DNA of 7,330 bases from Amoebophrya sp. A120 (lineage: Eukaryota > Protista > Dinoflagellata): positions 6,011 to 13,340 of the forward strand of contig CAJINV010000068.1 of NCBI GenBank assembly GCA_905178155.1, given 5' to 3'. A program made the translations under genes and the position numbers. Positions 1 through 7,330 of the stretch are shown here, piece by piece (positions within the stretch are counted from its first letter, which is position 1; the number at the start of each line of letters is the position of its first letter). Below the pieces are notes generated by a model that was given only the letters and a program-made list of their open reading frames with translations, was not told where the DNA came from and searched no databases.

Positions 1-787
1 TGTCTGGCTGTCCGCACCCGGGCCCGCGCCTTGTTTGTCCGAACCTGCATGGTCCGCGACTTCCCCTCCTTTGCCCTCATCTTGCGAGGGAGCGCTCGGC
101 ACTTCAGCGCCTCCTTCTTGCTGTTTTGCTTCCTGCCCTTGCGACAACCCTAGGCACTCATCCAGGTACAAAGTGCGTTTCGTGCGGTTCATCTTCGGCC
201 AATCGCGGACAGGAGGGAATTTATACGTGTCCGCGCCGAACTCATAGACAGGCCACGTGGTGTAGCAGTTGTCACGTTGCGCGACGTTGACTATTTGCAG
301 TGGAACTGTATGCACCGGGAGTGATGCACCAACTGGCATGAAGTCCTTTTGGTGGCTCGGAAGTACTTCTTTGCGAACTTCGTATCCCAGGGCCTGCGCT
401 CCTTCTAGTGCTTCTGCCAGGCTTAGCACTATGCCGCGACCCTGCCTGAGTGGACCGCGGGCATTCGCCTGCAGCCTCTTGAAGTCAGAGAGCTCCACAC
501 CTACTTTCCGAACCCCATGGCTGTGCTGCGTGACAAGTTGCAGCAACGTGAGCGCGTTGTTGACATAAGCCAGAAATCTCCGCTCTTGTCGGCGAACTTC
601 TACCCTCAGACGTTCCATCTTCGTTTTGCACTGCGCGAACACATTCCCTGTGTTTCTCTCAACGCAGACTGTCGCTGACAAATCCGAGGACGCCCGGACC
701 TCATATACGGGCAGCCCCGGTGGCATCCTGCCTCGCCCCAAAGTGCGATCCTTGACAAAGCCCGCAACTCTAAGTGCACCCCTTTGC
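1..787 (-). CDS. Exon running off the window edge (QRGALRVAGFVKDR...KMERLRVEVRRQERRFLAYVNNALTLLQ...GPGADSQT)
   Basis: Minus frame is stop-free from 855 to base 1. It is absent from the ORF track because it has no stop in the window. The exon's 5' boundary (~782-790) is uncertain. Confidence 0.75.
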
Positions 788-3700
788 CTACCTAGCATGA
801 CAGACATGCTTTGAGTGCCCGGAAAATTTCTCATGCGCCGACTAGAAATGGCACTTCAACTGGAGTTGTTTTTTGCATTACAAATCATTTCCACTTTGAG
901 GATTTCCAACCTGAGGCTGTCATACTCGGTCTTCGCGTTTTTCATCCCGGACATATCGAAAGGAAAAACTCCCCCTCCCCATATCGAACAAAAGGCATGT
1001 TTCCGAAAATTTGCGTTGCTGATTTGACGTCACAAATCATATCTGTCTTGCAAGAAGACAAGGGCAAAAGCTTCGCCCCCATCATGGAAGCGATTTGCCA
1101 TGCTGTTGGGCCTAAAGGGCAGCCGTTTGCCATGCTGAACAATTAAACCGATACGCCCCTACATAGCCTGGGGATCTGGCCGCAGCGCATTCCTGCAATA
1201 CGAAGCTGATTTGTGTACACAAATCCAGCATGAGAAATTTCGTTTCGATATGGGGAGGGGGGATTTTTCCTCTCGATAGGACACGTCGCCGACGCTGAAC
1301 ATGATGCTGCCTTCTTCTGCACTGTTTTATGCATTGCAAAAGCATCGCACTAGTATAAATTGCAATACAAACTTCCTTAGCATGAGAAATGGAATTTGTC
1401 ATGCGGATTTGCCTTGATGAAAACATTTGTAATGCAAGACTTGCATTTATACGAGTACGATACTTTTGCACAGGATATGTTTAGGAGTGACGCGATTTCG
1501 CCTTTGATTGCTTCTGCATCCTCCGCGCGGGGTTTGCCCTTGGGACGCGACACCCCTCGTGTCCTGAGTAAAAACGTACCCACACCAGAGTCAAGATGGG
1601 GACTTTGCAACACAAGCCTAGACCTTTTGGAGGTCACGCATCACAAGTTGCAGCCCGTAGCGTAGTGCAGGTTCGCAAGGCCAGCTGCATCAGAAATCCA
1701 TCTGCTCATCCTGTTTACAGCAGTACAAATTACAAAACACGACTAAAAATGCCTCTCCTGGCGATGCGCATTACAAATGTTCCTGTCATTGCAAATCTGC
1801 ATGACAACTCTGGTGTGGGTACGTTTTTACTCAGGATACCTCGCAAGTCATACACCCTCCTTTCCGCTTCAGCGACGATCTTCGCGTAGACTTTCCCCTC
1901 TACTTTTCCCCGCTCGATCGCTTCTTTAACTAGCTTTTGCACCACCGCGACCTTTGTCTCCTTCAAACGCTGCGCGAATGCTTCTGGGGATACCAAAGTG
2001 AAAAATCCCCCCACCCCATACTCAAACTAGAGCTTCGCGATGCAGATTTGTGGTCACAAATCAGCTTTGTCATGCTAGAAGGGAAAAGATGCGGACTGTA
2101 GTGCTGGTTGGCGTGGGAAAGCCTTGCATCTTCAGCATGACAGGGGGCAGCTGGAAGTGGGAAGCAGCATGACAAATTGCCTGCAACCAAGGCCACAGGT
2201 GCGTCTCGTCTTGGCCTTCTAGCATTACAAGTCGATTTGTGTACTCAACAAATACAGCATCACAAATTTCGTTTTCGATATGGGGAGGGGGGATTTCTCC
2301 TTTTGATAGGGGAGAGGGGCTCCTCTTGCTGTAGTTTCGCGCCGGTTTCATCATGCTCCCCTTCAGCAGGTTCTTTTTCGCTCCTCTTCGTGTACGGTTC
2401 CATTTGCAGGCTGTCCGCGAAGAAAGGGATGCCGTCGATCTCAAATTGATCCATAATGGCTTTGTCTTCCGCTTCCGCGTCCGTGAGGGCAGGATTTCTT
2501 TTTTGCAGAGCATCCGCCGCAGACATAATTTTGTCAATCTTCTTCTCAAGATCTTCTTCATCTTCATCATCGCCTCCACCCTCTGCTAACGAGGACAGAG
2601 CTTCATACCGGTTGCGTATCTCCGTGGTCGGATCGAGGGACAAGCTCCGGCGTTTGTTCGCGGGCCTGCTGGTGCTTCGTCCCCGCCGTTTCGCGTGCCC
2701 CTGTCCACCCCGGGAGGTAGTTCTACTCCTTCTTGGCGCGCCGCCGCGGCCCTCATCCACCCGAGGGGACGAGGTAGCTCTACTCCTTCTTGTTCTTGGC
2801 GCATCTCCGCTGTGTGATCGTGCCCGATCGGGAGCTGCAGCAGGTTCCACAGCACCAGGACGGAGTCGCGACAGCCGCTCCGCAGCCTCCTGGCTCGGAC
2901 TTCTCTGCATCACAGAAAAGCCTGCGTGTTGTTCTCTCTTGACTTGCCTCACTTCTCCAGTAGCTTGCGCTTTCAACTTTTCCAGCGCTTTCCTTCTTTC
3001 ATCTATGGAGGCGCCGGGATCGAAATCGACAAAGTTGAAGTTGCAAGAATAAACAAATAATGGCTTAGGCTTTCCATGCATAAAATTGATGCTGATGAAG
3101 ACTTGGAAGCTGCCCAGTTTCGTTTGCATTTGCTCGTGCAAGCGGCGCATGACAAATTGAAATTTCGGCATCATCGAAATCCAGTTTGTGTGCTGTAAGG
3201 ATGACAAGACATGATCATGATCTTGTTTTGCCTTGCTACAACTTTTTTAGCAGCTCCATCTCTAACCCAAACAGGCTTACAGTCGGCCTCGCTTGTTGTT
3301 GCTGACACCCCTGCAAGACAGGCACCTTGCGCAGGAGCACCATTGCGTTTGATGATCTTATGCAGTCCATTCTTTTCCAACTTGACCTTTGTCGATTTCG
3401 GTTCTGACGCTTCCATACCCTCTTGCAACCGTGTACTGGTGGTCGGATTTGCCCTTCGCAGCAAGCTGTCCTCCGGGCCACCGGCCCCGTCCGTTTGTAA
3501 GTCAATAACTATGCGGCCAGTAGTTTTAGACATCAATGGATGGTCCTTTTCAGTGGCAGAGCTGCTCTCGAACCACGCAGGCACAGCAGTTTCCAGGGTC
3601 AGCGTTTGGGGCGAAATCCAATACTTCACGTCGCGGGCCATGCAGATCTGCTGCTTGATACGGTTGCGACGGCTTATTTGCAGCGCTGCAGCAGCTGCGC

Positions 3701-6700
3701 GTTGTGGTGCAACAACTTCCGATGTTCTACTTGTTGGTCGAGGTTGTGGCGGGGGAGCCGGCACGCTTGGACAACATTCGCCACAACCAGCCGCTCCACA
3801 AGAATGATCTTCCTTTTTCTGTCCGTACGCAGCGGCAAGCGATCCCAAACGACCAGCTCCGCCTCCAGCCGTGGCAGCTGCGCCGGGATGAAGTAGAGCC
3901 TTTTGCTTTGTCATCTCGAAGAAATCGCCATCCTTCGTAGCGCAAGAGTCCACGCTAGTACTACCTTGTGCGAAGTCATGCACTCCATAGAGCGGGCTCG
4001 CGATCTTGATCTTGTACCCTCCTAGTACGACGTCGGAGGAGGTACTACCGCCTGTAGTAACACGACGACCGGTATGGATTGTAAAAGTGTCTGGGTCTGG
4101 AAGTAGAATGCAACTTGTCATGCTAAATCTGAATCATGTAAAAAATCTGTGTTGCATGATTACCAAGAGCTGTCCACTTTTGACCTAGTCGAGAGGCAGT
4201 TTCTCATGCAGGATAGGCATGATAGAACTCTCCGAGAATCTGTCATGCTCTGTCCTACATACCAGACCTCAGGGGTCATGTACGATCTGCATGACAAGTC
4301 TGGCATTCTTCCAGAGGAGGACCCAGACATTTTTACACTTGATAACCCGTAGCTCCCCACCCAGCATGTTTTGCCGCCCAATTCGACGCCACGAAACGCA
4401 TCTGTATCAAACAAAAAAGCGCTAACCACGTTAACGGCCTTCTTACATTGCAAATATGCATGACAAATTTTTCCGAGCATGCATGCTCTGCATGACAAAT
4501 TCGGCCACGTTTTGTGACGCATTTCTGCATCACAAATTCCGTTAACGTTAGCACTTTTTTCTGTGATAATCTGGCACAGCACGCAAGGGTTCTTGCTGAC
4601 ATAGATTTTATTCTCGAAAAAAGAAGAAGTTGTTGCACTACTGACCACTGGTGGAAGTTGTTGTTGTGCTTCTTTATGAGCTGGTACAGCTTGTTTTTGG
4701 TGTAGTAGCTTCCACTCCATGAGATGAAGCAAATTCGTTTCCGCGTGTCGGCCTCTGAGAGTTTTGTCCGTCATACCCCCATATCAAATGTAAAAATGTC
4801 TGAGTCTGGAAGATTGCCAGGTTTGTCATGCACATTTTGCATGACTCCTGATGTCTGTGATGCATGCCCTAGCGTCACAGATTTTGTGAGGGCTTCCTGA
4901 TGCCTATACCGCATGACAAATGCTCTTTCCGAGTAGCAAAACTTGGACTCTCTTTGCTGCTCATGCAATACAGAATTTTTTGGAATCCAAAATCAGCATG
5001 ACAAGTTGGATTCTTCCAGACCCAGACATTTTTACATTTGATACCCCACGCTCCTGCTTGTCCACGTCCACGCGGACGAATTGAAGAGAAGCGACCTGTA
5101 TCAAATGCAAATGTGTCTGGGTCTGGAAATTTGTGATGCTGGGTGGCGTATCATGAGGAGGCCACAAGTGCTGGCGCAGCTAGCAGGACAAGTTTCTGAG
5201 CTTCTGGGTGTTCTTGCCTATTCTGCATGGCAAGCTGCGTTTCTGCGTGACAGAAGAGGAGGCTCTTGGGTAACGTGCATGACAGATGTAAGAGCCATAC
5301 CAGACAAGCATGACAAGCATCAACATGCATTCTTCCAGACCCAGAACTAAAAATATGCATTTCATAACCTTCTCCTGGATGAATCTCGCCACGAGGCTCT
5401 TTTTTGCCTTCCTGTCCTCGTCGTCCTCGGTTTCGGCTAAGAAAGCCTTCAACCCGTCCGACAAGGGTTCGACATCGAAGATTTCAGATATGACGGCGCA
5501 CTAGAAGTACCACCCTGCTCCCCCTCATTTTTTCTTTTCCACGCATGAAGAACAACAGCGAATTAATATACAAGAACAAAAGCACAAGCTGCACACGCGC
5601 AGCCTGTAACTGACAAGTTCTTCACGCGCCTCGCACAGAGGGACTGTAGTCCTAGTAGCCTTTTTGGGCTTCCGGAATAAAATCTGTCACGCAAACAATG
5701 AATAAGTACTACAAGGCAGCGCGACCGCGACCAGTGGATTTGGGAACTTGCACCATGACGAAGTCGAAGGTATGAGGGGGAGCAGGGGGACGAGTTGTGC
5801 ACTGTCATATGATAAGAGCTTAAAACCGGAAGAAGAAACGGATCAGCATCTCCACCATGATCTACTTATGCATTGCAAATATTATGTCTGCCTCCCTCTG
5901 GAAAATCTAAATTGTGGCTGTGCTGCTAAATTGATACTTAGGTACTTATGGATGACGATGAGTCTGGTGCTTTCCTTTCAACAGGTGCAGCTAAGCATGA
6001 CAAGTTCATTTGACGCCGTCTGATGCGTTGGGTATGCAACACAAGTTTTCAGAAAAGTAAACTAGACACGACATGCAAGACAAAGAACTACTCCACTTTT
6101 ATTGCAGACGACCCAGTAGTAGACGCATAAATGTATTTGCATTCGATACAGGAGCTTGACCAACAGTAGAAATAACACCTCCAACTCCGCGGCCTTGATT
6201 TGATGTATTTATTCCACGAGGACCTCTACCAGGAACAGTATCAAGAACAAAGCTTGCCTCCAAAACCGCTTTTAAACAAGCGCTGACCGCTTTTTTCGCT
6301 GTGTTCACGAACCGCTCATGTTCGTAACGATCGATCGGAACGCTTTCGAATGCTCCTGTCCGCTTTGTCGTCGCGTCGAAATCCCGCGCGTAGAAGGCGG
6401 TCTCCCGTAGCTGTTTAGTACGCCCCAGTTCTTCAAAGAAAACATCGCTCTCCTTGAAGGGTACCCGCGCTACACTCCCGGGAAGAAATACAGTCCGCAC
6501 CGGGGATGACGTGGCCATCGAGGACTTCTCTTTCTTGTAAGTACGGAACTTGGCTCTCAACAAGTCCCGACGGTCCTGCCAGGAGGGAGGGCGGGGGGGC
6601 GCGCCTGCTGAGCCTATGGACTGCAAATATTTATGTTGTCCGGGTCTGGGGTATTGTGATGTGGATTTTTGGACATTGTTTATGCGAACGCGTGGTCCTG

Positions 6701-7107
6701 AATTGGCGGCCAAGCATGTTGACCAAAAGTTTCATTTCAGTTGCTACGTGTTGCCTCTTCTGCATGGTATAATGCAAGCATCCATTCTGCATCTTCCATG
6801 ACAAAAAAAACAAAAAGGGCTTGATCGATGGGATGGAAATGGAATAATAATAAAAAGGTAAAAATACAAATAATAAACGAATGCATGTTGACAGACTTGA
6901 GAGTCATGCTCCAGCTGCTGGCACCAGAGAATTACGACTGACTACAAGCGTCCTTCTTGCACTCTTCCAAATGACCAATACATCATATTTGCAATGCGTA
7001 GAGCCGCCGGCGGTGCCTCCTCCTCGGTCCACACGCTTCTGTATCAGTAAGTTCGAGTTGAACGCGATAAGCAGTCGGCTGTTGTTGACATGATGTGGAG
7101 GGTTCAG
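1..7107 (-). CDS. Large multi-exon gene, partial at both ends (~1161 aa reconstructed from 14 exons), with a putative Zn-dependent cytidine/adenosine-deaminase-superfamily domain
   Basis: Model exons: 7107-7001, 6609-6149, 5861-5810, 5483-5367, 5093-5044, 4776-4569, 4399-4345, 4067-3418, 2998-2309, 1985-1839, 1554-1478, 1322-1279, 948-911, 787-1. They total 3483 nt with no stop. Removed lengths 391, 287, 326, 273, 267, 169, 277, 419, 323, 284, 155 and 330 nt each convert the upstream open frame into the downstream one. Junctions can slide within the 5-bp DRs, and the last intron is uncertain. Confidence 0.85.
789..931. mobile_element. Degenerate introner-like TIR element / intron
   Basis: Left arm TACCTAGCATGACAG (789) vs reverse complement of right arm GACCGAGTATGACAG (931). 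Motif variants at 795, 828 and 875. The DR is decayed (TTGCC/TTCGC). It contains the in-frame TGA at 858-856 that must be removed. Confidence 0.5.
911..948 (-). CDS. Micro-exon GMKNA(KTEYDSL)
   Basis: In frame after removal of element 954-1278. The 3' end is 911 if GT-AG intron 788-910 is used, or ~932 if the whole degenerate element is removed. Confidence 0.5.
954..1278. mobile_element. Introner/MITE family A, copy 1 (325 bp)
   Basis: ~35-bp TIR TATCGAAAGGAAAAACTCCCCCTCCCCATATCGAA vs TATCGAGAGGAAAAATCCCCCCTCCCCATATCGAA. Perfect DR GGACA at 949-953 and 1279-1283. Removing 330 nt gives FSVGDVS|GMKNA. Confidence 0.92.
1279..1322 (-). CDS. Exon SAEEGSIMFSVGDVS
   Basis: Open in the frame dictated by both flanking element excisions. 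Confidence 0.75.
1328..1477. mobile_element. Introner/MITE (150 bp)
   Basis: TIR TATGCATTGCAAAAGCATCGCACTAGTATAAA vs TATCCTGTGCAAAAGTATCGTACTCGTATAAA. Perfect DR TGTTT at 1323-1327 and 1478-1482. Removing 155 nt gives IASLLN|SAEEGS. Confidence 0.88.
1478..1554 (-). CDS. Exon VSRPKGKPRAEDAEAIKGEIASLLN
   Basis: Core of ORF 1377..1637. In frame with both neighbours after excision. Confidence 0.8.
1560..1838. mobile_element. Introner/MITE family B, copy 1 (279 bp)
   Basis: Perfect 30-bp inverted repeat 1562-1591 / 1807-1836 (TCCTGAGTAAAAACGTACCCACACCAGAGT). Perfect DR CCTCG at 1555-1559 and 1839-1843. The 284-nt removal can be read as GT-AG intron 1839->1556 and gives YDLRG|VSRPK. Confidence 0.95.
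1839..1985 (-). CDS. Exon EAFAQRLKETKVAVVQKLVKEAIERGKVEGKVYAKIVAEAERRVYDLRG
   Basis: Protein-like, helical-looking core of ORF 1730..2014. In frame with both neighbours. Confidence 0.85.
1991..2308. mobile_element. Introner/MITE family A, copy 2 (318 bp)
   Basis: TIR TACCAAAGTGAAAAATCCCCCCACCCCATA vs TATCAAAAGGAGAAATCCCCCCTCCCCATA. Perfect DR GGGGA at 1986-1990 and 2309-2313. The interior resembles 954-1278. Removing 323 nt gives EEPLSP|EAFAQ. Confidence 0.92.
2309..2998 (-). CDS. Exon: charged, low-complexity region (R/S-rich basic tract, then acidic GGGDDEDEED tract)
   Basis: Part of the 315-aa ORF 2260..3207 lying between two elements. Confidence 0.85.
2704..2810. repeat. Imperfect intra-exon tandem duplication (2 units, ~50 bp)
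   Basis: GAGGTAGTTCTACTCCTTCTTGGCGC (2714-2739) vs GAGGTAGCTCTACTCCTTCTTGTTCTTGGCGC (2771-2802), each preceded by TCCACCC. They encode APRRSRTTS / APRTRRSRATS. Confidence 0.75.
3004..3417. mobile_element. Introner/MITE (414 bp)
   Basis: ~40-47-bp TIR TATGGAGGCGCCGGGATCGAAATCGACAAAGTTGAAGTTG vs TATGGAAGCGTCAGAACCGAAATCGACAAAGGTCAAGTTG. Decayed DR TCATC/CCCTC. Removing 419 nt, or GT-AG intron 3418->3003 (416 nt), joins TRLQE to RRKALEK in frame. Confidence 0.85.
3418..4067 (-). CDS. Exon RRVTTGG...KIKIASPLYGVHDF...HSCGAAGCGECC...TTSTRLQE
   Basis: Core of the 316-aa ORF 3171..4121 between two elements. Confidence 0.85.
4073..4344. mobile_element. Introner/MITE family C, copy 1 (272 bp)
   Basis: TIR TATGGATTGTAAAAGTGTCTGGGTC vs TATCAAGTGTAAAAATGTCTGGGTC. 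DR ACCGG/ACCCG (4 of 5). Removing 277 nt gives GWGATG|RRVTT. Confidence 0.9.
4345..4399 (-). CDS. Exon RFVASNWAAKHAGWGATG
   Basis: In frame with both neighbours after excision. Confidence 0.78.
4405..4568. mobile_element. Introner/MITE (164 bp)
   Basis: TIR TATCAAACAAAAAAGCGCTAAC(CAC)GTTAACGG vs TATCACAGAAAAAAGTGCTAACGTTAACGG. Perfect DR ATCTG at 4400-4404 and 4569-4573. Removing 169 nt gives PCVLCQM|RFVAS. Confidence 0.92.
4569..4776 (-). CDS. Exon with deaminase zinc-binding motifs: GRHAETNLL...KIYVSKNPCVLC
   Basis: HAE at 4747-4739 and PCVLC at 4588-4574 with a 50-aa spacer. This is the HxE...PCxxC signature of the cytidine-deaminase-like superfamily. Confidence 0.8.
4782..5043. mobile_element. 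Introner/MITE family C, copy 2 (262 bp)
   Basis: 32-bp TIR TATCAAATGTAAAAATGTCTG(A/G)GTCTGGAAGA with one mismatch. Perfect DR CCCCA at 4777-4781 and 5044-5048. Removing 267 nt gives DKQERG|GMTDK. Confidence 0.95.
5044..5093 (-). CDS. Exon ASLQFVRVDVDKQERG
   Basis: In frame with both neighbours after excision. Confidence 0.8.
5099..5366. mobile_element. Introner/MITE family C, copy 3 (268 bp)
   Basis: TIR TATCAAATGCAAATGTG-TCTGGGTCTGGAA vs TATGAAATGCATATTTTTAGTTCTGGGTCTGGAA. DR ACCTG/ACCTT. The 273-nt removal reads as GT-AG intron 5368->5096 and gives IQEKV|ASLQF. Confidence 0.9.
5367..5483 (-). CDS. Exon IFDVEPLSDGLKAFLAETEDDEDRKAKKSLVARFIQEKV
   Basis: Frame of ORF 5180..5464 extended upstream to the element boundary. 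Confidence 0.82.
5489..5809. mobile_element. Introner/MITE (321 bp)
   Basis: TIR TATGACGGCGCAC...CCCTGCTCCCCCTCAT vs TATGACAGTGCAC...CCCTGCTCCCCCTCAT, with a perfect 16-bp inner stem 5513-5528 / 5772-5787. Decayed DR TCAGA/TGATA. Removing 326 nt is in frame, and so is GT-AG intron 5802->5501 (302 nt). Confidence 0.8.
5810..5861 (-). CDS. Exon DHGGDADPFLLPVLSSY
   Basis: Open in the frame required by both flanking excisions. Confidence 0.65.
5867..6148. mobile_element. Diverged introner/MITE, family-C-like (282 bp)
   Basis: TIR TATGCATTGCAAATA-TTATG vs TATCGAATGCAAATACATTTATG. GCATGACAA at 5995. The DR is essentially lost (CTACT/CAGGA). Removing 287 or 284 nt joins ORF 6099..6713 to the next exon in frame. 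Confidence 0.62.
6149..6609 (-). CDS. Exon AGAPPRPPSWQDRRDLLRAKF...ERFVNTAKKAVSACLKAVLE...VGQAP
   Basis: Core of the 204-aa ORF 6099..6713 between two elements. Confidence 0.85.
6615..7000. mobile_element. Introner/MITE, family-C-like (386 bp)
   Basis: TIR TATGGACTGCAAATAT vs TACGCATTGCAAATAT. Perfect DR GAGCC at 6610-6614 and 7001-7005. The 391-nt removal can be read as GC-AG intron 7004->6614 and gives GTAGGS|AGAPP. Confidence 0.88.
7001..7107 (-). CDS. Exon LNPPHHVNNSRLLIAFNSNLLIQKRVDRGGGTAGGS
   Basis: Core of ORF 6904..7131. In frame with the downstream exon after excision. Confidence 0.8.
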
Positions 7108-7330
7108 TATCCTGAGTAAAAACGTACCCACACCAGAGTCAAGATGGGAAATCTGCTAGACAAATCGGCAAGCTTTGGGAGTTGTGCATGACAAGTTTCC
7201 GTCTGTAGTATAGTGGTGCATAGCAAGGCAAGCCGCATGAGAAAGCCAATTTCTCATCCTGTTTACAGCATTACAAATGCCAAATCACGATTGGAAATAC
7301 CTCTCATGAGGATGCGCATTACAAATGTTC
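7108..7330. mobile_element. Introner/MITE family B, copy 2 (truncated by window edge)
   Basis: Collinear with 1560-1782 at offset 5548, and the first 41 nt match at 40 positions. The preceding 5-mer TTCAG (7103-7107) is the candidate DR. Confidence 0.92.

What the first reader, a model, noticed from the sequence alone, without database searches (positions are those of the whole stretch)
795..7325. Shared motif GCATGACAA marks the elements and avoids exons
Seen: 15 exact copies counted by eye. Forward copies are at 1799, 2167, 3147, 4289, 4458, 4490, 4911, 4996, 5308, 5995 and 7186; reverse copies are at 1396, 2067, 4115 and 4823. All lie inside elements. Many GCAT[GCT]A[CG]AA variants also occur (e.g. 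828, 875, 1228, 1380, 1638, 2222, 2257, 4527, 5131, 7236). Copies often sit 30-50 nt inside each end in mirror orientation (4115/4289, 4823/4996, 5131/5308). It crosses families whose TIRs are unrelated. Inference: a protein-binding site (transposase subterminal site, chromatin factor or intron-definition factor) kept by selection.
Basis: partly seen in the sequence, partly recalled or inferred. Interest (0 to 1): 0.72.

Follow-up and report, generated by a model that had tools for sequence, protein, structure and literature searches.

The report
Helically phased motif shared by introners
Short jumping elements that have become this protist gene's introns carry one shared 9-letter motif, spaced in whole turns of the DNA helix and blind to the direction of transcription, which likely marks the docking sites of the still unknown protein that copies them around the genome.

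Summary
The motif is real: 15 exact copies against 0.12 expected, all inside TAT...ATA elements with 5-bp target-site duplications (TSDs). These match the published Amoebophrya A120 introner signature. Removing 13 of them restores an 894-codon minus-strand frame. In 562 kb of other loci, fetched with a motif-free bait, GCATGACAA is the commonest 9-mer: 4.7/kb in 344 elements, 0.02/kb in long ORFs, and present in 49 of 52 families. Same-strand pairs sit 31-33 bp apart (53 vs 7.6 expected), divergent pairs 46-50 bp. First sites lie 31-33, 39-43 or 52-54 bp from the end. Best periods are 10.4-10.5 bp. There is no bias to the transcribed strand (625 vs 675) and no mirror covariation. Sites are about 2.5-fold more conserved than their flanks, most strongly on propagating lineages. 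Best reading: double-stranded DNA sites for the transposition machinery. The protein was not found, and a DNA-level intron mark is not excluded. The TIRs are related, not unrelated. The elements are known; I found the motif in none of my paper searches.

The parts
925..7107 (-). Host gene segment: 13 element-introns interrupt one reading frame of 894 codons with no stop; exon pieces have no Pfam hit
   Evidence: 0 stops in one minus frame after removing each element plus 5 nt; 18-34 stops in the other five frames
773..924 (.). Truncated element (right part of a TATGGAAG/TATGAAAG-type family); variant sites at 795(+), 828(-), 875(+); left end not found
   Evidence: other copies read the perfect motif at 828-836 (830 C>G)
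954..1278 (.). Introner, TSD GGACA/GGACA; variant sites 1043(-), 1095(-), 1127(-), 1228(+); 32-bp tandem pair 1095/1127
1328..1477 (.). Introner, TSD TGTTT; sites 1362(+), 1380(+), exact 1396(-), 1427(-); 31-bp pair 1396/1427
1560..1838 (.). Introner, TSD CCTCG; six sites, all on + and so all antisense to the mRNA: 1607, 1638, 1687, 1720, 1768, exact 1799; three 31-33-bp pairs; skipped in a probable RNA contig
   Evidence: X8 record 22 skips 1555-1838
1991..2308 (.). Introner, TSD GGGGA; exact 2067(-), 2135(+), exact 2167(+), 2222(+), 2257(+)
   Evidence: X8 record 23 skips 1986-2308
3004..3417 (.). Older introner (TSD 2 mismatches); 2 sites left (exact 3147(+), 3313(+)) against 6 in its closest family; still spliced
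   Evidence: (skip 3000-3418 in X3 and X7)
4073..4344 (.). Introner, TSD ACCGG/ACCCG; exact 4115(-), 4147(-), 4201(-), 4240(-), exact 4289(+); 32-bp pair and 49-bp divergent pair
4405..4568 (.). Introner, TSD ATCTG; exact 4458(+), exact 4490(+) (32 bp apart), 4527(+) 33 nt from the right end
4782..5043 (.). Introner of the most abundant family sampled, TSD CCCCA; exact 4823(-), 4855(-), exact 4911(+), exact 4996(+); end offsets 41 and 39
   Evidence: skip 4777-5043 inferred from piece coordinates of X3 record 12
5099..5366 (.). Introner, TSD ACCTG/ACCTT; 5131(-), 5183(+), 5225(+), 5277(+), exact 5308(+); 31-bp pair 5277/5308
   Evidence: X3 record 12
5489..5809 (.). Older introner (TATGAC-type TIR, TSD 2 mismatches); one variant site (5684, -) against 5 in its closest family; still spliced
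   Evidence: (skip 5484-5809 in X3 and X6)
5867..6148 (.). Older introner (TSD 4 mismatches); exact 5995(+), 6036(+), 6075(+); still spliced
   Evidence: (skip 5862-6148)
6615..7000 (.). Introner, TSD GAGCC; one variant site (6796, +)
7108..7330 (.). Introner of the same family as 1560-1838, cut by the window end; exact 7186(+), variants 7235, 7268, 7316
   Evidence: X3 record 13 joins at 7107

Best explanation
GCA[T/A][G/C/T]A[C/G]A[A/G] is a conserved, helically phased internal motif shared by nearly all TAT...ATA introner families, and it likely serves as the double-stranded DNA binding site of the one transposition machinery (a transposase or its accessory DNA-binding protein) that mobilises them all. 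Shown: the elements are short TIR elements with 5-bp TSDs and no coding capacity, and they are removed from the reading frame as introns. Sites come 2-6 per element, typically as tandem pairs 31-33 bp apart (3 turns) and divergent pairs 46-50 bp apart. The first outward site lies 31-33, 39-43 or 52-54 bp from the end (about 3, 4 or 5 turns). Orientation is independent of transcription. Inferred: protein molecules bound on one helical face wrap or bridge the short element and pair its two ends, as TnsB sites do in Tn7 and TnpA sites do in En/Spm. Copies with correctly phased sites propagate, so the sites survive while the spacers turn over; after insertion they decay. Splicing would rely mainly on the TIR hairpin, not on the motif.
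For: Enrichment in elements called without using the motif: 397 exact copies in 84.7 kb of elements, 23 in 257 kb of unique stop-free DNA, 2 in 98.8 kb of ORFs of 300 codons or more. 335 of 344 elements carry a site with at most 1 mismatch; 49 of 52 family representatives carry a matrix site. Spacing against a null with randomised positions (64 representatives): same-strand 31-33 bp 53 vs 7.6+/-2.6 (max 18); divergent 46-50 bp 22 vs 4.6+/-2.1 (max 11). The best period over 7-20 bp for same-strand spacings is 10.4, at phase about 0. For end offsets the best of 11 periods tried is 10.5 (33 unique class/offset values; p=2.5e-4 on the 31 values up to 56). Spacers between tandem sites are mostly unrelated (mean identity 0.34-0.42; 10 and 13 clusters). 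In the largest family 9 of 109 copies have the left offset 11 nt shorter. Transcript strand: 625 sense vs 675 antisense sites in 298 oriented elements, p=0.17; one-directional families insert both ways (5/9, 4/2, 26/15). Element 1560-1838 has all six sites antisense and is skipped in a contig. Elements left with 1-3 sites are skipped too. Constraint is strongest on internal branches: core ratio 0.09, rising to 0.21, 0.38 and 0.57 on ever shorter tips; all nine positions give 0.32, 0.45, 0.55 and 0.57 (summed by me). Core mismatch per copy (0.044) is about equal to TSD mismatch (0.05). Unique DNA holds few isolated copies: 11 isolated, 33 clustered, often at element-like spacings.
Against: No binding protein or autonomous element was found. 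There was no transposase or integrase domain in 96 of the 138 ORFs of 250 aa or more from the loci; 42 were not scanned. Farhat et al. report no transposase in A120. On the shortest tips the motif is still under-mutated (ratio 0.57, p=0.04-0.06), so some selection after insertion is possible; the sample is too sparse to separate the two. Families are not phylogenetically independent, and 157 of 344 elements come from the two bait-related families. The matrix was trained on the same representatives. Core positions were chosen from conservation, so the core ratio is partly circular. A motif-like site inside the TIR is only weakly supported (p=0.013 outward at offset 1, but an inward register at offset 3 scores higher). 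Within families, grammar spacings are only slightly more stable than other spacings (0.88 vs 0.81 within 1 nt, p=0.03; indel rate p=0.31). Opposite-strand 15-18 bp spacing is only modestly raised (14 vs 7.5, max 17). 64 of 344 elements lack an end-proximal outward site.
Confidence: 0.6

Rival explanations
1. A DNA-level intron mark or chromatin site. A host DNA-binding protein sits on the phased sites, positions chromatin or slows polymerase, and flags the element for co-transcriptional splicing in either orientation, in an organism where U1 snRNA was not detected.
For: Helical phasing and strand independence fit this equally well. Short tips still show some constraint (0.57). More than 60% of introns are non-canonical and U1 was not found.
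Against: Spliced elements with only 1-3 sites and no intact tandem pair exist. Core decay per copy matches TSD decay. Constraint is much stronger on propagating branches. The motif is rare outside elements.
Confidence: 0.2
2. Shared ancestry or module shuffling without current function: all families descend from one ancestor and carry along a duplicated 32-bp module.
For: All TIRs share one signature. Some internal modules are visibly shared between families, for example 1396-1435 with 1768-1807.
Against: Spacers have diverged to 0.34-0.42 identity while the sites and their spacing persist. Motif columns are about 2.5-fold more conserved than flanks in 13 of 13 families. Offsets jump by about 10 nt with none at 36-38 among 66 outward first sites within 70 nt of an end.
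Confidence: 0.08
3. A single-stranded RNA site for a splicing factor (GCAUG resembles the recalled RBFOX core), which defines these introns on the pre-mRNA.
For: The motif is confined to introns.
Against: There is no sense-strand bias (exact copies 159 vs 182). An element with no sense copy is skipped. A 10.4-bp period is not expected on single-stranded RNA.
Confidence: 0.05
4. An RNA-structure element: mirror copies extend the TIR hairpin that brings the splice sites together.
For: In 3 of 12 window elements the mirror copies are predicted to pair strongly with each other across the element, and an inner pair does so in a fourth.
Against: Mirror offsets are equal within 1 nt in only 56 of 188 elements. 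Left and right variants do not covary (38 vs 33.3, p=0.064; position 5: 70 vs 67.3, p=0.22), whereas nt 15-28 do (3898 vs 3836+/-14). Most sites pair with non-motif sequence. Some families have all sites on one strand.
Confidence: 0.07

Closest known systems
Amoebophrya A120 introner elements (Farhat et al. 2021, PMC7789003; Gozashti et al. 2025, PMC12130899)
   Same: TIR starting TAT, 7 variable nt, then AAA; short direct repeats; non-canonical splice ends. Family lengths here (109, 149, 209, 216, 235, 252, 262, 280, 307, 321) resemble lengths listed there (106, 149, 208-209, 214, 234, 252, 260, 278, 305, 319-321).
   Different: No internal cross-family motif or spacing rule appears in the passages, sections and supplement text that I saw. 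Farhat et al. argued against general transposase-mediated mobilisation. Here the repeat is a clean 5-bp TSD in 309 of the 401 homology-defined copies scored.
Tn7 ends (TnsB sites; PMC9308760)
   Same: An array of internal transposase sites behind a short terminal sequence; spacing matters; left-end sites are separated by 42 and 31 bp. The 5-bp TSD and TGT...ACA ends of Tn7 are recalled, not from a call.
   Different: Tn7 sites are 22 bp and weakly conserved, and the 31/42 figures are gaps between sites, not start-to-start distances. Here the 9-bp sites occur on both strands throughout 100-400-bp non-coding eukaryotic elements. No homology is claimed.
En/Spm (CACTA) subterminal TnpA motifs (PMC2613891)
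   Same: A short motif reiterated in direct and inverted orientation inside the TIRs, bound by an element-encoded DNA-binding protein and needed in cis by non-autonomous copies.
   Different: CACTA ends and a 3-bp TSD. The motifs differ between CACTA subfamilies, whereas here one motif spans all end classes. No helical phasing is mentioned in the passages that I read.
IS3EU/GingerRoot and Ginger2/TDD integrase-like DNA transposons (PMC10045372, PMC6839031, PMC2836005)
   Same: TA...TA termini, occasionally TG...CA (IS3EU/GingerRoot); a 5-bp TSD in TDD-4/5. A120 family 38 is labelled 'Ginger, 5-bp TSD, TA/TA termini'.
   Different: IS3EU/GingerRoot TSDs are usually 6 bp and GingerRoot TIRs 100-150 bp. 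Ginger2 ends are TGTNR. No transposase could be tied to these elements, and the word 'subterminal' does not occur in the two papers searched for it.

Membership tests
Amoebophrya A120-type introner elements | TIR TAT-N7-AAA | tested here: met
   Logo of 688 ends: TAT 0.99 each; positions 11-13 A at 0.85-0.93. Some families (TATGAC..., TATGGAAG...) lack the AAA.
Amoebophrya A120-type introner elements | Short direct repeat at the exon/intron boundary | tested here: met
   5-bp TSD: perfect in 309, 1 mismatch in 60, 2 in 18, 3 or more in 14 of 401 copies scored
Amoebophrya A120-type introner elements | Repeated in the genome | tested here: met
   Most window elements hit loci, up to about 190 hits deep; four older elements have no hit
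Amoebophrya A120-type introner elements | Spliced out of mRNA, often at non-canonical ends | tested here: met
   Five elements skipped directly and two by inference from piece coordinates, in contigs of runs that the tool only guesses to be RNA; run X1 holds unspliced contigs over 2280-4099 and 5774-7132; 894-codon frame restored
Amoebophrya A120-type introner elements | Source organism is that strain | tested here: inconclusive
   Inferred from TIR signature and family lengths only; no genome is held and run names are coded
Transposase or accessory-protein subterminal sites (Tn7/En-Spm type) | Reiterated, conserved, position-constrained motif inside the ends | tested here: met
Transposase or accessory-protein subterminal sites (Tn7/En-Spm type) | Same motif in an autonomous element that encodes the protein | tested here: inconclusive
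   Two TIR pairs over 800 nt in 562 kb; the 1104-nt one holds a GC-rich insert and no ORF of 250 aa; no transposase domain in 96 ORFs scanned
Transposase or accessory-protein subterminal sites (Tn7/En-Spm type) | Binding, and requirement for transposition | not testable with these tools
   Needs EMSA or pull-down and a transposition assay
IS3EU/GingerRoot | TA...TA termini | tested here: met
   TAT...ATA
IS3EU/GingerRoot | 6-bp TSD | tested here: not met
   The duplication is 5 bp in the window elements
IS3EU/GingerRoot | Integrase-like DDE transposase | tested here: inconclusive
RNA splicing-factor site | Bias to the transcribed strand | tested here: not met
   625 vs 675, p=0.17

The most novel reading that the evidence does not exclude
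One domesticated or captured DNA-binding protein reads a helically phased code on all of these introners and does two jobs. It assembles the complex that copies them, and it marks them on the DNA so that they are cut out of nascent RNA in either orientation without U1 or GT-AG ends. That would be intron definition by a transposon-derived double-stranded DNA mark.
Probability: 0.12. Interest if true: 0.92.

Novelty: new variant of a known kind. Interest (0 to 1): 0.64.

Why it matters
How the roughly 30,000 A120 introners move, when no transposase was found, and how they are spliced without a detectable U1, are both left open in the genome paper. A single phased motif across nearly all families says that they likely form one mobilising system, not many. 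It gives a defined DNA probe to fish out the protein, a signature to search for the autonomous parent, and a clean way to separate transposition needs from splicing needs (mutate or de-phase the sites and keep the TIRs). It also gives a motif-and-spacing rule for finding decayed introners that TIR searches miss.

Tried and rejected
No whole genome is held, so no genome-wide scan was possible. No listed holder is on record as RNA. The 2026 raw RNA runs X12 and X13 covered no exon, so no read-level splicing rate or strand could be had. No contig of X3, X7 or X8 covered 1-735, which is no evidence either way. Two viral-contig scans found nothing. Purine skew was too weak to orient genes; I replaced it with a hexamer model that scored the window minus and agreed between neighbours in 195 of 206 cases. 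Counting private alleles per column is confounded by saturation and was replaced by trees. No clear left end was found for the 773-924 remnant. A 16-bp period, suspected, is not supported for end offsets (R=0.11). The TIR as a degenerate site is inconclusive. The Pfam scan found no transposase. Three of 55 clusters (30, 46, 47) were dropped from the family set for lacking the TIR signature. A literal search for the 9-mer returned 1,712 papers; the 30 listed are unrelated, judged from the listing only. Our findings index returned nothing.
Full report
OBSERVATION. GCATGACAA is the commonest 9-mer of the window, and 42 sites match with at most 1 mismatch. All 15 exact copies lie inside elements that cover 3816 of 7330 nt; 6 are within 50 nt of an end.

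WHAT THE ELEMENTS ARE. The window holds 12 complete elements that begin TAT (once TGT) and end ATA (once GTA), one cut by the window end and one truncated remnant at 773-924. Seven of the 12 have a perfect 5-bp TSD. Removing 13 elements plus 5 nt each leaves a stop-free 894-codon frame on the minus strand from 7107 to 925; the other five frames have 18-34 stops. Contigs of runs that the tool guesses to be RNA skip 1555-1838, 1986-2308, 3000-3418, 5484-5809 and 5862-6148. By piece coordinates they also skip 4777-5043 and 5094-5366. Run X1 holds unspliced contigs across several of these. The TIR logo is TAT-S-N6-AAA. This is the signature described for Amoebophrya A120 introners, and family lengths agree with the A120 table of PMC12130899. 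The organism is inferred, not shown.

INDEPENDENT SET. They reduce to 139 segments and 562 kb, and the window's exons do not occur in them. GCATGACAA is the top 9-mer there (620 copies), above the bait's own words. I called 344 elements from TIR plus TSD alone; none appeared in resampled versions of 25 segments. Exact copies per kb: 4.69 in called elements, 4.28 in homologous DNA, 0.03 in other repeats, 0.145 in other unique DNA and 0.089 in unique stop-free DNA. Five shuffled control 9-mers gave 0-8 copies in elements. In unique ORFs of 300 codons or more there are 2 copies in 98.8 kb, about chance. Of 44 copies in unique DNA, 33 have neighbours, often at element-like spacings, which suggests relics. 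The elements form 55 clusters; 52 were kept, and 49 of them carry a matrix site. The set is biased: two bait-related families supply 157 of 344 elements.

Each family was counted once (52 families plus 12 window elements). Same-strand sites are 31-33 bp apart in 53 pairs (null 7.6+/-2.6, max 18 in 2000 runs). Divergent sites are 46-50 bp apart in 22 pairs (null 4.6+/-2.1, max 11). Opposite-strand 15-18 bp pairs are only modestly raised (14 vs 7.5, max 17). Scanning periods of 7-20 bp, same-strand spacings peak at 10.4 with phase near zero. With the main peaks removed the 10.4 term remains (R=0.245), but 14.7 is then higher. Opposite-strand spacings peak at other periods (18.2, 15.7). The first outward site lies at 30-35, 39-43 or 50-54 nt, with single values at 45, 47, 63 and 65 and none at 36-38. 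Collapsed to 33 unique end-class/offset values, the best of 11 periods tried is 10.5 (p=2.5e-4 against uniform offsets, on the 31 values up to 56). Spacers between tandem sites are mostly unrelated (identity 0.34-0.42), and so are the sequences between TIR and first site. Within the largest family 9 of 109 copies have the left offset 11 nt shorter, and 11-nt deletions outnumber 9-, 10- and 13-nt ones (12 vs 2, 4, 3; possibly one subfamily). Against this, grammar spacings are only slightly more stable than other spacings within families, and the families share ancestry.

DNA OR RNA. In 298 elements oriented with a hexamer model, 625 sites read sense and 675 antisense (p=0.17), and no family shows a significant insertion bias. 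Element 1560-1838 has six sites, all antisense, and is skipped. Mirror sites do not covary and are at equal offsets in only 56 of 188 elements, while nt 15-28 of the two ends do covary. These results point to double-stranded DNA.

SELECTION. Non-consensus letters per cell: motif 0.086, 9-nt flanks 0.223, other internal 0.241; the motif is lower than its flanks in 13 of 13 families. On trees, the motif/other ratio for the four core positions is 0.09 on internal branches and 0.21, 0.38 and 0.57 on long, medium and short tips. For all nine positions it is 0.32, 0.45, 0.55 and 0.57 (summed). The terminal 30 nt go from 0.39 to 0.87. In copies defined by homology, core mismatch is 0.044 per site and TSD mismatch 0.05. 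Older window elements that keep 1-3 sites are still skipped, and other copies carry the perfect motif where the window has a variant (830 C>G, 1098 C>T). This fits selection during propagation followed by decay. The tip ratio does not reach 1, however, and with about 0.56 Mb sampled the tips include unsampled active lineages, so selection after insertion is not excluded.

MECHANISM. Most likely (0.6) the sites are bound by the transposition machinery on one helical face, helping to pair the ends of elements only 100-400 bp long. The enrichment, spacing, strand symmetry and conservation are shown. Binding, the identity of the protein and its role in end pairing are inferred. Rivals: a DNA-level intron or chromatin mark (0.2), mere shared ancestry (0.08), RNA structure (0.07), an RNA-binding splicing factor (0.05). 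No transposase was found: no such domain in 96 of 138 long ORFs from the loci or in 4 window frames, and two long TIR pairs were uninformative.

COMPARISON. It works like the internal TnsB sites of Tn7 and the TnpA motifs of En/Spm; neither is a membership claim. By termini the nearest superfamily is IS3EU/GingerRoot (TA...TA), but the TSD is 5 bp, not 6, and Ginger2/TDD ends are TGTNR. The elements themselves are known introners.

IN PRINT? What I saw. PMC7789003: abstract, sections 11 and 16 whole, passages, and a term search of its one supplement (text only; figures S19-S25 not visible). PMC12130899: passages, a term search of 12 of 14 supplement files, and all 58 A120 rows of file 8. PMC9860276, PMC11282704, PMC9308760, PMC2613891, PMC10045372, PMC2836005 and PMC6839031: passages only. 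Searches, seen as listings, showed no description of the motif. Roy et al. 2023 was not read, and bioRxiv 10.1101/2024.09.05.611473 was seen as a listing only. Unseen figures, the two unsearched files and papers outside the library could mention it.

VERDICT. A real, general and apparently undescribed feature of a known class of elements: a new variant of a known kind (subterminal binding arrays), notable for spanning nearly all families and for its helical phasing. Interest 0.64.

Noticed in passing
elements in L001-L149 (13 families of 6 or more copies): Insertions relative to the family consensus are strongly biased to 3 nt (135, vs 58 of 2 nt and 26 of 4 nt; 37 of 6 nt), many of them tandem duplications, although these are introns. 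Deletions show no such bias, and intron length modulo 3 is flat (117/106/121). Either a triplet-duplication mutation bias or selection on retained introns.
   Followed up: partly
window 2999-3422, 5484-5814, 5862-6153: Where the two TSD copies differ, the copy downstream in the transcript is the one removed with the element, and the ends are not GT-AG.
   Followed up: partly
window 1-924: A truncated element (773-924) overlaps a stop-free minus frame 855-1 (285 codons, no Pfam hit). It may be partly exonised, or the 3' part of the gene; no clear left end was found.
   Followed up: partly
window 2904-2921: An exonic stretch carries a motif variant (2907) and matches a high-depth element contig over a short length (joint 2921 to 5262): chance, or an exonised scrap.
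   Followed up: no
L018:505-1608: A 1104-nt element with TAT...ATA ends and a GCAAC TSD, whose interior is about 800 nt of GC-rich, repeat-like captured sequence.
   Followed up: partly
run X12 laid on window 4112-4163 and 4782-4815: This RNA run covers no exon but holds about 118 reads of what looks like one related, unspliced element, with the motif again 39 nt from its end.
   Followed up: no
element ends, nt 15-30: Each end class has its own strongly conserved block (TGTCTGGGTCTGGAA, CCCCCTCCCC, GTTAAC and others; variation 0.03-0.04 in families 0, 1 and 6), as conserved as the motif. It may be a second, class-specific site.
   Followed up: no
L015:2628-6083: A C5 cytosine DNA methylase gene split over two long frames.
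   Followed up: no
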